A DNA stretch of 1,577 bases from Escherichia coli (GCF_003334355.1 NZ_QOWP01000084.1), one strand, 5' to 3'; counted from the first letter of the stretch, positions 1 to 1,577 are shown. The notes: generated by a model not told the origin, from the sequence alone. Made by a program: numbers and translations.

Positions 1-1192
<1,192 letters not shown>

Positions 1193-1210
1193 ATTTTATA
1201 ACCCAGAACG

Positions 1211-1237
1211 GGCGTCAGAAATGACGCCTTTTTTATT
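1211..1237 (+). terminator. Rho-independent (intrinsic) terminator downstream of J
   Basis: Seen directly: perfect 7-bp inverted repeat GGCGTCA (1211-1217) / TGACGCC (1222-1228) around a GAAA loop (1218-1221, a GNRA-type tetraloop), followed by the T-tract TTTTTTATT (1229-1237). It begins 18 nt after the J stop codon. It is oriented for + strand transcription; the reverse complement has no U-tract after the stem. Confidence 0.65.
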
Positions 1238-1247
1238 GCAGAAAAGC

Positions 1248-1253
1248 GAGAGG
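1248..1253 (+). promoter_or_regulatory. Shine-Dalgarno ribosome-binding site for lom
   Basis: GAGAGG at 1248-1253, followed by a 5-nt spacer (TAATT) and the ATG at 1259-1261. Confidence 0.6.
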
Positions 1254-1258
1254 TAATT

Positions 1259-1330
1259 ATGCGTAAACTTTATGCCGCCATTTTGTCCGCAGCCATTTGT
1301 CTGGCCGTATCCGGTGCGCCTGCATGGGCG
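1259..1330 (+). other. Predicted Sec signal peptide of Lom (24 aa), likely cleaved after the AWA motif
   Basis: The N-terminus MRK (positive n-region), then the hydrophobic core LYAAILSAAICLAVSGA, then the A-x-A-type site P-A-W-A followed by SEHQ. Cleavage after residue 24 is predicted from the pattern only. Confidence 0.65.
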
Positions 1331-1577
1331 TCTGAACATCAGTCCACGCTGAGCGCGGGGTATCTTCATGCCCGGACGAACGTTCCCGGCAGTGATGATC
1401 TGAACGGGATTAACGTGAAATACCGTTATGAGTTTACGGACACACTGGGGATGGTGACGTCGTTCAGCTATGCAGGAGACAAGAATCGCCAGCTGACCCG
1501 TTACAGCGATACCCGCTGGCATGAAGATTCCGTGCGTAACCGCTGGTTCAGCGTGATGGCGGGGCCGTCTGTGCGCG
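1259..1577 (+). CDS. lom: Lom outer-membrane protein (Ail/Lom/OmpX/PagC family 8-stranded beta-barrel), N-terminal 106 codons; 3'-partial, continues past the window end
   Basis: ATG at 1259 with an upstream RBS; open frame to the window end. The translation MRKLYAAILSAAICLAVSGAPAWASEHQSTLSAGYLHARTN...GINVKYRYEFTDTLG..VTSFSYAGDKNRQLTRYSDTRWHEDSVRNRWFSVMAGPSVR matches my recollection of lambda Lom almost residue for residue. It has a typical Sec signal peptide and alternating aromatic/hydrophilic stretches (e.g. GINVKYRYEF) characteristic of beta-barrel strands. Location directly downstream of J fits lambda gene order. Confidence 0.92.
   Translation, partial: MRKLYAAILSAAICLAVSGAPAWASEHQSTLSAGYLHARTNVPGSDDLNGINVKYRYEFTDTLGMVTSFSYAGDKNRQLTRYSDTRWHEDSVRNRWFSVMAGPSVR

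What the first reader, a model, noticed from the sequence alone, without database searches (positions are those of the whole stretch)
1259..1577. Lom: an Ail/Lom-family outer-membrane protein expressed from the prophage (virulence-associated accessory gene)
The N-terminal 106 residues match lambda Lom as I recall it, with at most a few substitutions. The Ail/Lom/OmpX/PagC family includes proteins implicated in adhesion and serum resistance, and lambda lom has been associated with adhesion of lysogens to human cells. Its high conservation next to the apparently diverged C-terminus of J is itself a mosaic signature. It is not novel, but it is the host-interaction cargo of this window.
Basis: partly seen in the sequence, partly recalled or inferred. 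Interest (0 to 1): 0.3.

Follow-up and report, generated by a model that had tools for sequence, protein, structure and literature searches.

The report
Common prophage Lom-family barrel, not lambda's

Summary
The ORF at 1259-1577(+) is real. It has an ATG preceded by GAGAGG, then 106 open codons that run off the window. It matches Pfam Ail_Lom (E 6e-61). Near-identical relatives are intact at 199 aa, and the closest one models as a signal peptide plus an 8-stranded barrel that matches Ail and OmpX.

The 106 residues are about 35% identical to lambda Lom (44-46% over the full length), with almost no DNA homology. Relative to lambda, lom is more diverged than the J C-terminus, not less.

This is the common 199-aa allele. 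It matches 4645 of 5426 complete E. coli genomes; the lambda allele matches 97.

The differences from lambda Lom lie in three predicted outward-facing loops (9-21% identity). The strands and turns are 61-81% identical.

lom lies behind a hairpin terminator that is supported by covariation. The same allele adjoins at least four J receptor-domain types.

The window's J tip is identical to a solved OmpC-bound J fragment (PDB 9wcb). Lambda Lom is deposited together with LamB (PDB 9wso) and blocks lambda-vir when overexpressed.

My leading functional reading is porin-associated anti-adsorption. It is inferred only. Adhesion or virulence is the rival.

The gene is already known and of low interest.

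The parts
2..1192 (+). 3' part of the tail-tip / host-specificity gene J (396 codons plus TGA at 1190-1192)
   Evidence: NCBIfam lambda_TipJ NF049904 E 4.5e-205, profile positions 736-1163 of 1163. 75% identical overall to lambda J.
2..750 (+). Lambda-homologous portion of J. DNA homology to lambda ends here (mosaic joint inside J).
   Evidence: blastn window versus lambda: 2-750 at 93.6%, then nothing except a 59-nt patch. Amino-acid identity is 96% before window J residue 245 and 43% after it.
752..1189 (+). J C-terminal receptor-binding domain, non-lambda type (here called J1), most likely OmpC-binding
   Evidence: 146/146 residues identical to PDB chain 9wca_J 'A8 gpJ 713'. Entry 9wcb, which holds the same J sequence, also holds 'Outer membrane porin C' in 3 chains. 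42% identical to lambda's LamB-binding domain.
1210..1234 (+). Intrinsic-terminator hairpin (stem 1210-1217 / 1222-1229, loop GAAA) followed by a run of six T (1229-1234), between J and lom
   Evidence: Terminator scan. RNA fold -17.6 kcal/mol, z -2.8. Across 15 distinct intergenic variants, 95.8% of cells pair versus at most 59% for slid controls, and 3 of 8 pairs show changes on both sides. Lambda has a non-homologous hairpin at the same place.
1248..1253 (+). Shine-Dalgarno GAGAGG, 5 nt before the lom ATG
   Evidence: Read directly from the sequence. GAGAGGT is invariant in all intergenic variants, including lambda.
1259..1577 (+). 5' 53% of an Ail/Lom-family outer-membrane protein gene (codons 1-106 of an expected 199). 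The stop is expected 279-281 nt beyond the window end.
   Evidence: The 99.8%-identical E. coli Ec1119 locus has an intact 199-aa CDS. Two IMG/VR loci (L005, L006) have the identical first 106 aa and are 199 aa long.
1259..1330 (+). Sec signal peptide: MRK, a hydrophobic core, then AWA|SE. No lipobox.
   Evidence: Sequence inspection. The AF2 model shows a helix at 2-17, a low-confidence linker at 19-25, and the first strand from residue 29. No signal-peptide predictor was available.
1364..1405 (+). Predicted extracellular loop 1 region (residues 36-49). Short type, lacking lambda's 8-residue insertion.
   Evidence: 9% identity to lambda Lom here. Loop variants across loci are listed. Topology is inferred by analogy with OmpX and Ail, the top fold matches.
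1466..1534 (+). Predicted extracellular loop 2 region (residues 70-92), 'AGDKNRQLTRY' variant
   Evidence: 17% identity to lambda Lom. An alternative 'ANAEDEQKTHY' cassette occurs in otherwise similar alleles.
1398..1456 (+). The only stretch of lom with DNA similarity to lambda lom. It encodes the conserved NGINVKYRYEFTD strand-turn-strand.
   Evidence: blastn 84.7% over 59 nt. These columns are invariant in alignment A1.

Best explanation
WHAT IT IS (shown, about 0.97). Window 1259-1577 is the first 106 codons of a 199-codon gene for an Ail/Lom-family protein. The protein has a Sec signal peptide, probably cut after Ala24 (AWA|SE), followed by an 8-stranded outer-membrane beta-barrel. The window covers strands 1-4 and predicted surface loops 1 and 2.

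It is the common lambdoid-prophage allele of E. coli, not lambda's Lom. It shares the membrane-embedded strands, the periplasmic turns and the C-terminal ...GFIVGVGYKF with lambda Lom (61-81% identity), but not the three long outward-projecting loop regions (9-21%).

The gene is a small cassette between the tail-tip gene J and the side-tail-fibre gene stf. In the closest relative and in lambda, intrinsic terminators flank it on both sides.

HOW IT IS EXPRESSED (inferred). No promoter of its own is recognisable. The main expression should therefore come from Q-antiterminated late transcription reading through the J-lom terminator. Low constitutive expression in lysogens is reported for lambda and Phi24B orthologues but is not shown here.

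WHAT IT DOES (inferred, about 0.4). It most likely works like lambda Lom appears to work. It would sit beside a trimeric porin that lambdoid phages use as receptor and lower adsorption of related phages, mainly late in the lytic cycle. The variable loops would set which porin or phage is affected.

Genes like this are under purifying selection (dN/dS 0.10 in the barrel, 0.26 in the loops), so a functional protein is being maintained.
For: Identity:
- Pfam Ail_Lom E 6e-61; PHROG 108 E 5.5e-54.
- The window is 99.8% identical to E. coli Ec1119, where the CDS is intact at 199 aa and is followed by stfR and tfa.
- All 100 window-type ORFs in the loci examined (98 from IMG/VR plus Ec1119's own) are intact at 199 aa.

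Fold:
- The AF2 model of the Ec1119 protein has pLDDT 82, one helix and 8 strands.
- Foldseek top hits are Ail 3qra (E 3e-15, TM 0.82 normalised by target) and OmpX 1qj9.

Not lambda's allele.

Cassette layout:
- Terminator with compensatory changes upstream of lom.
- Downstream terminator in Ec1119 and lambda.

Selection: dN/dS over 88 unique alleles.

Function by analogy:
- Lambda Lom overexpression protects strongly against lambda-vir but not T7. The authors propose prevention of non-productive adsorption late in infection (PMC12366544, read).
- PDB entry 9wso contains both lambda Lom and maltoporin LamB.
- lom is dispensable for lambda plaque formation (PMC10695390).
- The gene always lies next to the receptor-recognition genes J and stf.
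Against: - No experiment exists on this allele.
- Its predicted surface loops are unrelated to lambda Lom's, so LamB binding cannot be assumed.
- The same allele sits next to at least four different J receptor-domain types. The J type closest to the window's (J2, 78% identical) mostly carries a different Lom type. Lom type therefore does not track the receptor domain cleanly.
- Per PMC12366544, lysogen-level lambda Lom does not block lambda-vir in the laboratory.
- Short-tailed, BamA-using Stx phages also carry Lom relatives, about 41% identical.
- Neither Lom hits any PADLOC defence model.
- I saw only the chain names of 9wso. I saw neither coordinates nor a paper, so 'complex' is an inference.
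- The 3' half of the gene is outside the window.
Confidence: 0.55

Rival explanations
1. It is lambda Lom (or a near-identical orthologue), a lysogenic-conversion virulence factor. It would be expressed from the repressed prophage and promote adhesion to human cells or serum resistance, as Ail, Rck and PagC do.
For: - Family membership and the Ail/OmpX fold.
- Reviews cite Vica Pacheco 1997 for lambda-lom-dependent adhesion to buccal cells.
- lom and bor are listed as lysogen-expressed lambda genes (PMC7067206).
- A Phi24B Lom orthologue was expressed equally in stable and induced lysogens (PMC3342100).
Against: - The identity premise is false: 35% identity to lambda Lom and 9-21% in the loops that would contact any ligand.
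- Scores fall below the curated cut-offs for the Rck equivalog (113 versus 258) and the OmpX equivalog (98 versus 176).
- No promoter was found, and a functional-looking terminator lies upstream.
- The allele matches 86% of complete E. coli genomes, often in several copies and including isolates from carrots, frogs and swine. It therefore does not mark pathogens.
- The adhesion evidence is a single old report on a different allele.
Confidence: 0.2
2. Matched pair. This Lom allele would specifically mask OmpC, the receptor of the J tip encoded immediately upstream, just as lambda pairs a LamB-binding J with a LamB-associated Lom. J tip and Lom would then be a cognate key-and-cover module.
For: - The window's J tip is identical to the J fragment deposited with OmpC.
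- Lambda Lom is deposited with LamB.
- In my sample lambda Lom occurs only with lambda-type J (4 of 4). Window-type Lom never occurs with lambda-type J. Overall, Lom type is strongly predictable from J type.
Against: - Window-type Lom is joined to J types that are only 43%, 59% and 78% identical to the window's J tip.
- Lom2 occurs with both a lambda-like tip (J5) and a J1-like tip (J2).
- J2, the closest relative of the window's tip, mostly carries Lom1 or Lom2.
- The joint between J-type-specific and lom-type-specific sequence lies at the terminator. lom is therefore exchanged independently of the J tip.
- The association is what linkage of adjacent genes would give in any case, and the sample is biased: it consists of the best 80 hits of each of two queries.
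Confidence: 0.12
3. Inactive remnant. The copy in the source genome is truncated or frameshifted beyond the window, or is never expressed, and has no function.
For: - The 3' 47% of the gene is not in the window.
- Many database entries for the family are 'partial' or fused gene calls.
- No promoter was found.
Against: - All 100 window-type ORFs examined are intact at 199 aa.
- dN/dS is 0.10-0.26.
- The nearest genome (3 mismatches in 1577 nt) has the intact gene.
- The Shine-Dalgarno sequence and start codon are intact.
Confidence: 0.03
4. Lysis or envelope helper. [quoted passage not shown]
For: A comparative study found that lom and a holin gene are frequently co-transferred among lambdoid phages and proposed a lysis role. 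It also notes that Lom is strongly expressed in the lytic cycle (PMC9836094).
Against: - This is purely correlative.
- lom knock-down does not affect lambda plaque formation.
- It explains neither lambda-vir-specific protection nor the LamB co-deposit.
Confidence: 0.05

Closest known systems
Lambda Lom (NP_040601; PDB 9wso chain C)
   Same: - Same Pfam family and the same position between J and stf.
- Same terminator-gene-terminator layout.
- Same 8-strand plan.
- 61-81% identity in strands and turns, and an identical C-terminal ...YEGSGSGDWRTDGFIVGVGYKF.
   Different: - Only 35% identical over the window part and 44-46% overall.
- 199 versus 206 aa: loop 1 lacks an 8-residue insertion.
- The loop 1, 2 and 3 regions are 9%, 17% and 21% identical.
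- Almost no DNA homology.
- The lambda allele matches 97 of 5426 E. coli genomes, this one 4645.
- Lambda's neighbour J binds LamB. This one's J tip is the OmpC-bound type.
Ail of Yersinia pestis (PDB 3qra) and OmpX of E. coli (PDB 1qj8/1qj9)
   Same: - Best structural matches of the model: E 3e-15 and 2e-14, TM 0.82-0.84 normalised by target, 29-31% identity.
- Sequence hits at E about 1e-18.
   Different: - The Lom proteins are about 25 residues longer in the mature part, with longer outward strand extensions.
- The score is below NCBIfam's OmpX equivalog cut-off, 98 versus 176.
- Chromosomal housekeeping or virulence genes versus phage cargo.
Rck / PagC (Salmonella serum-resistance barrels)
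   Same: Best NCBIfam model hit is PRK15240 'resistance to complement killing', E 1e-32.
   Different: The score of 113 is far below the 258 cut-off, so it is not an equivalog. No evidence for complement resistance here.
Lom relatives of short-tailed Stx phages (933W / Phi24B / phi349 type)
   Same: Annotated Lom, prophage cargo. The Phi24B copy is shown to be expressed in lysogen cultures.
   Different: About 41% identical to the window type. Carried by BamA-targeting podophages that have no J gene.
Receptor-blocking exclusion proteins of siphophages (T5 Llp and phi80/N15 Cor acting on FhuA; named from my own knowledge)
   Same: Phage-encoded envelope proteins proposed to stop the phage's own kind from adsorbing. 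This is the functional analogy I favour.
   Different: Llp is a lipoprotein, not an 8-stranded barrel. No sequence or fold relation. For this Lom allele, blocking is an inference only.

Membership tests
Ail/Lom family (Pfam PF06316) | Significant match to the family profile | tested here: met
   E 6.1e-61, 206 bits, model positions 1-106 of 199 for the window fragment. PHROG 108 E 5.5e-54.
Ail/Lom family (Pfam PF06316) | N-terminal Sec signal peptide with a signal-peptidase I site | tested here: met
   MRKLYAAILSAAICLAVSGAPAWA|SEHQ. Basic n-region, hydrophobic core, A-x-A, no lipobox (by inspection only). The model has a helix at 2-17 and then a disordered linker.
Ail/Lom family (Pfam PF06316) | Eight-stranded antiparallel beta-barrel | tested here: met
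   Tested on the full-length Ec1119 protein, which differs from the window by 1 residue in 106. AF2 gives 8 strands at pLDDT 82. Foldseek top hits are Ail and OmpX. The window itself encodes only strands 1-4.
Ail/Lom family (Pfam PF06316) | C-terminal beta-signal ending in an aromatic residue, needed for BAM insertion | not testable with these tools
   It lies outside the window. It is present (…VGVGYKF) in all full-length relatives.
Lambda Lom proper (PGAP gene name 'lom') | Near-identity to NP_040601 | tested here: not met
   35% identity over the window part, 44-46% over the full length, and no DNA homology apart from 59 nt. RefSeq names the lambda allele 'lom' and this one only 'Ail/Lom family…'.
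OmpX equivalog (NCBIfam NF006917) | Score above the curated cut-off of 176 bits | tested here: not met
   98.3 bits for the full-length relative.
Rck / complement-resistance equivalog (NCBIfam NF011777) | Score above the curated cut-off of 258 bits | tested here: not met
   113.2 bits for the full-length relative.
Phage 'moron' (independent accessory transcription unit) | Own terminator downstream of the gene | tested here: met
   Seen in the 99.8%-identical Ec1119 locus: AGCCCGCCGGTTCAGGCGGGCT plus TTTTTG, 27 nt after the lom stop. A homologous hairpin is present in lambda. It lies outside the window.
Phage 'moron' (independent accessory transcription unit) | Own promoter upstream of the gene | tested here: inconclusive
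   The consensus scan finds no sigma-70-like site on the + strand upstream of lom in the window or in Ec1119. Only 24 nt separate the terminator T-run from the ATG. The scan detects only near-consensus promoters.
Phage 'moron' (independent accessory transcription unit) | Exchanged independently of the flanking genes | tested here: met
   The same lom allele (at least 90% identical) lies next to J types J0, J1, J2 and J3, with the joint at the intergenic hairpin.
Receptor-masking / superinfection-exclusion outer-membrane proteins | Binds the phage's own receptor and lowers adsorption | not testable with these tools
   Only indirect evidence exists, and for lambda Lom only: lambda-vir-specific protection and co-deposition with LamB in 9wso. 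No PADLOC model hit.
Receptor-masking / superinfection-exclusion outer-membrane proteins | Specificity element co-varies with the phage's receptor-binding domain | tested here: inconclusive
   The association is strong but not one-to-one. Lom0 occurs with J0 (28), J1 (25), J3 (18) and J2 (3). Lom1 occurs with J2 (16). Lom2 occurs with J2 (5) and J5 (2). Lom3 occurs with J4 (4). This is compatible with plain linkage, and the sample is biased.

The most novel reading that the evidence does not exclude
Lambdoid phages would carry, side by side and separately exchangeable, a receptor-binding tail tip and a small barrel protein that covers a porin receptor. In this window, the OmpC-binding J tip (identical to the one in PDB 9wcb) would be followed by a Lom allele whose lambda-unlike loops retarget it from LamB to OmpC or to another porin. 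The hypervariable Lom loops, present in about 86% of E. coli genomes, would then form a large and unexplored repertoire of receptor masks that shapes which prophages exclude which phages.
Probability: 0.13. Interest if true: 0.6.

Novelty: already known. Interest (0 to 1): 0.18.

Why it matters
The value here is mainly a correction.

The label 'Lom' on most E. coli and Stx prophages hides the fact that the common allele shares only the membrane scaffold with the lambda protein on which all experiments were done. Those experiments cover adhesion, lambda-vir protection and the LamB co-structure. The predicted surface loops are 9-21% identical, so none of those properties can be assumed for this gene.

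There is also a cheap, concrete experiment. The window pairs this allele with a J tip whose OmpC complex has been solved. That makes it a natural test of whether Lom-type barrels act as receptor masks in general.

Otherwise the gene is ordinary. It matches 4645 of 5426 complete E. coli genomes and is routinely annotated.

Tried and rejected
- **Exact source.** No record matches the window 100%. The best is 99.8% (E. coli Ec1119), so the true downstream sequence could not be read. Relatives were used instead.
- **Text search for '9WSO'** returned only irrelevant papers. Two further literature searches found no paper describing the Lom-LamB structure. The partner chains were instead identified by querying the PDB with J, which is absent from 9wso, and with LamB, which is present in 9wso.
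- **Liu et al. 2013** (ribosome profiling of lambda) is not held. Statements on lom expression therefore rest on papers that cite it.
- **Promoter search.** No sigma-70 consensus site lies upstream of lom in the window or in Ec1119. By eye I considered TATAAC at 1197-1202 and TTGCAG at 1236-1241. I rejected both because neither has a matching partner hexamer at 16-18 nt, and the first would start transcription inside the terminator.
- **PADLOC defence models:** no hit for either Lom.
- **Co-variation of Lom type with J tip type:** done. It is strong but not one-to-one and cannot be told apart from linkage. I rejected it as proof of a cognate pair.
- **Positive selection in the loops:** not found. 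dN/dS is 0.26 in the loops and 0.10 in the barrel.
- **Antisense ORF 1196-1522(-), 108 aa:** no PHROG family. It lies wholly opposite the strongly supported lom frame, so I treat it as spurious.

Full report
**1. The observation**

The window reads as one long + strand frame from position 2 to a TGA at 1190-1192. A 66-nt spacer follows, and then an ATG at 1259 opens a frame that runs without a stop to the window end, 106 codons.

The first frame is the C-terminal 396 residues of the lambda-type tail-tip protein J (NCBIfam lambda_TipJ, E 4.5e-205).

The second frame is an Ail/Lom-family protein. It matches Pfam PF06316 at E 6.1e-61 over model positions 1-106 of 199 and PHROG 108 'Lom outer membrane protein' at E 5.5e-54.

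So the coordinates, the strand and the family are right, and the signal is far beyond chance.

**2.

I took the real lambda sequence (NC_001416, J 15505-18903, lom 18965-19585) and compared it.
- The window's 106 residues are 35% identical to lambda Lom by BLASTP (33/94).
- In a global alignment they are 34% identical. The full-length relative is 44-46% identical.
- At DNA level the window aligns to lambda from 2 to 750 (93.6%). After that only a 59-nt patch aligns (1398-1456, 85%), which encodes the conserved NGINVKYRYEFTD segment.

Relative to lambda, J is 96% identical up to window residue 245 and 43% after it. Lom is 34%. The gene called 'highly conserved' is therefore the more diverged of the two. 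The break with lambda lies inside J at about position 750, not between J and lom.

**3. What the gene is**

The best public match to the whole window is E. coli Ec1119, at 99.8% with 3 mismatches. There the gene is an intact 199-aa CDS annotated 'Ail/Lom family outer membrane beta-barrel protein'. It follows gpJ and precedes stfR and a tail-fibre assembly gene.

Two IMG/VR loci encode a Lom whose first 106 residues are identical to the window's, and both are 199 aa long. All 100 window-type ORFs I collected are intact at 199 aa.

The N-terminus reads MRK, a hydrophobic core, then AWA|SE. This is a signal-peptidase I site with no lipobox.

An AlphaFold2 model of the Ec1119 protein (pLDDT 82) shows a signal helix and eight strands. 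Its best PDB matches are Ail (3qra, E 3e-15) and OmpX (1qj9).

It is not an OmpX or Rck equivalog. Scores are 98 versus a cut-off of 176, and 113 versus 258.

Across 88 distinct 199-aa alleles, dN/dS is 0.10 in strands and turns and 0.26 in the loop regions. A working protein is being conserved, and there is no sign of positive selection.

**4. How common it is**

The lom part of the window matches 4645 of 5426 complete E. coli genomes. The median is 2 copies per genome and the maximum 13. Isolates come from people, swine, frogs and carrots.

The corresponding part of lambda's own lom matches 97 genomes, many of them laboratory strains. RefSeq gives the gene name 'lom' only there.

In the phage collection, 156 records carry the window type at 90% identity or more. 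They are mostly long-tailed lambdoid and Stx1a/Stx2 phages. Short-tailed Stx phages carry a third type at about 41%.

**5. Where it differs from lambda Lom**

Identity by region:

| Region | Identity to lambda Lom |
|---|---|
| Loop 1 region (residues 36-49) | 9% |
| Loop 2 region (70-92) | 17% |
| Loop 3 region (124-156) | 21% |
| Strands and periplasmic turns | 61-81% |
| Last 43 residues | 81% |

By analogy with OmpX and Ail, the variable segments are the outward-projecting ends of the long strand pairs. This topology rests on established knowledge and is not tested here.

The loops are themselves exchanged as cassettes. Some alleles carry 'ANAEDEQKTHY' instead of 'AGDKNRQLTRY' in loop 2. 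Some 207-aa proteins combine a lambda-like long loop 1 with a window-like body.

**6. Surroundings: terminator and promoter**

Between J and lom lies a hairpin (1210-1229, GAAA loop) followed by six T. I compared 15 distinct versions of this spacer from related loci.
- The helix is kept in 95.8% of cells, against at most 59% when the 3' arm is slid.
- Three of eight pairs change on both sides: G-C to A-U in 7 sequences, C-G to U-A in 4, and A-U to U-A in 2.

This is good evidence that it is a real RNA hairpin, most simply an intrinsic terminator. Lambda has an unrelated hairpin plus T-run at the same place. Both lambda and Ec1119 have a second, homologous terminator just after lom. lom is thus a terminator-bracketed cassette in the late operon.

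I found no sigma-70-like promoter in front of it. Only 24 nt separate the T-run from the ATG.

The most economical reading is that most expression comes from Q-modified polymerase reading through during lytic growth. Expression in lysogens is reported for lambda and for a Phi24B orthologue. It cannot be read from this sequence.

**7. Surroundings: the J tip**

The last 146 residues of the window's J are 100% identical to PDB chain 9wca_J, 'A8 gpJ 713'. The sister entry 9wcb also contains three chains of outer membrane porin C.

This tail tip is therefore almost certainly an OmpC binder, unlike lambda's LamB binder (42% identity).

**8. Function**

Two lines of recent evidence concern lambda Lom, not this allele.
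- A 2025 screen reports that lambda Lom, when overexpressed, protects strongly against lambda-vir but not T7. The authors suggest that Lom prevents non-productive adsorption late in infection (PMC12366544).
- The PDB holds an entry, 9wso, that contains both lambda Lom and maltoporin LamB. It does not contain J. I found no paper for it, so 'complex' is my inference from the chain list.

The older claim is adhesion to buccal cells. It is a single 1997 study, cited. lom is dispensable for plaque formation.

**9. Testing the attractive idea that Lom is matched to the neighbouring J tip**

I collected J-lom loci from IMG/VR, which reduced to 105 non-redundant J-tip/Lom pairs. I clustered Lom at 90% identity and the last 150 residues of J at 80%.

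| Lom type | J types it occurs with (count) |
|---|---|
| Lom0 (window type) | J0 (28), J1, the window's type (25), J3 (18), J2 (3) |
| Lom1 (207 aa) | J2 (16) |
| Lom2 | J2 (5), lambda-like J5 (2) |
| Lom3 (lambda Lom) | J4, lambda J (4) |

Lom0 also occurred three times, and Lom1 once, next to an upstream gene that was not a normal J (clusters J6-J9).

The association is strong but not one-to-one.
- The same Lom sits beside tips that share only 43-59% identity.
- The tip most like the window's (J2, 78%) usually carries a different Lom.
- The hairpin variant follows the J type, while the T-run, Shine-Dalgarno and lom follow the Lom type. The recombination joint therefore lies at the terminator, and lom moves independently of the J tip.

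This is what linkage of neighbouring genes would give. My sample is also biased towards two queries. I count the test as inconclusive and leaning against a strict cognate pair.

**10. Verdict**

The object is a known, ubiquitous prophage cargo gene, correctly placed in the Ail/Lom family but wrongly equated with lambda Lom.

I commit to the following.
- **Shown:** a Sec-exported, 8-stranded outer-membrane barrel gene in a terminator-bracketed cassette after J. It is under purifying selection, and its predicted surface loops are unrelated to lambda Lom's.
- **Inferred, about 0.4:** it acts like lambda Lom seems to act, as a porin-associated anti-adsorption factor working mainly late in the lytic cycle.
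- **Rival, about 0.2:** adhesion or serum-resistance conversion factor.
- **Novel but unlikely, about 0.13:** an OmpC-directed mask matched to the OmpC-binding tip next door.

Interest is low. The useful products are the correction of the identity claim, the evidence for the terminator, and a sharply defined experiment.

Noticed in passing
window 752-1189: The J receptor-binding domain is 100% identical (146/146) to PDB chain 9wca_J 'A8 gpJ 713'. Entry 9wcb holds the same J sequence together with three OmpC chains. The phage behind this window therefore very probably uses OmpC, not LamB.
   Followed up: yes
window about 750 (inside J): DNA homology to lambda (93.6% over 2-750) stops abruptly inside J, at the start of the C-terminal receptor-binding region. 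This is a classic lambdoid mosaic joint within a gene.
   Followed up: partly
window 1210-1234; L001 1621-1636; related loci L004-L160: The J-lom intergenic hairpin plus T-run keeps its pairing through compensatory changes across prophages. The stem variant tracks the J type, while the T-run and Shine-Dalgarno track the lom type. The recombination joint therefore appears to sit at the terminator.
   Followed up: yes
window 1193-1204 and the equivalent in related loci: A short motif, TTAT(A/T)AACCC, lies directly after the J stop codon and before the hairpin. It is conserved among otherwise different spacers. Its role is unknown. It is not a convincing -10 element.
   Followed up: no
PDB 9wso (outside the window): A solved entry contains lambda Lom (2 chains) and LamB with the same sequence as in the J-LamB complex 8xcj. 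No paper describing it was found in the held library.
   Followed up: partly
Alignment A1; proteins P0077, P0107, P0007, P0025: Lom proteins are internally mosaic. Loop 2 comes in two cassettes (AGDKNRQLTRY and ANAEDEQKTHY). Some 207-aa proteins carry a lambda-like long loop 1 on a window-like body.
   Followed up: partly
L002 7885-7906 and L001 2313-2334: The terminator downstream of lom is homologous between lambda and the window-type locus (AGCCCGCCGG…GGGCT TTTTTGTGGG), even though the coding regions share only about 45% protein identity. The 3' end of lom and its terminator are the conserved edge of the cassette.
   Followed up: partly
L051, L054, L117 (IMG/VR loci): In a few loci the gene upstream of lom is not J. 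In L051 it is a lysozyme-like protein. In L054 it is a transposase-like protein whose sequence runs to within about 20 nt of the lom ATG. In L117 it is an unrelated protein. These point to rearrangements or insertions next to lom.
   Followed up: no
window 1196-1522, minus strand: A 108-codon ORF lies antisense to lom. It matches no PHROG family and is most likely a chance open frame opposite a GC-balanced gene.
   Followed up: yes
homologue list (P0001-P0005, P0070, P0071, P0082): Many database 'Lom' proteins are longer than 199 aa (215-343 aa) or carry unrelated Pfam domains. They probably reflect upstream start calls, fusions across frameshifts or assembly chimeras.
   Followed up: no
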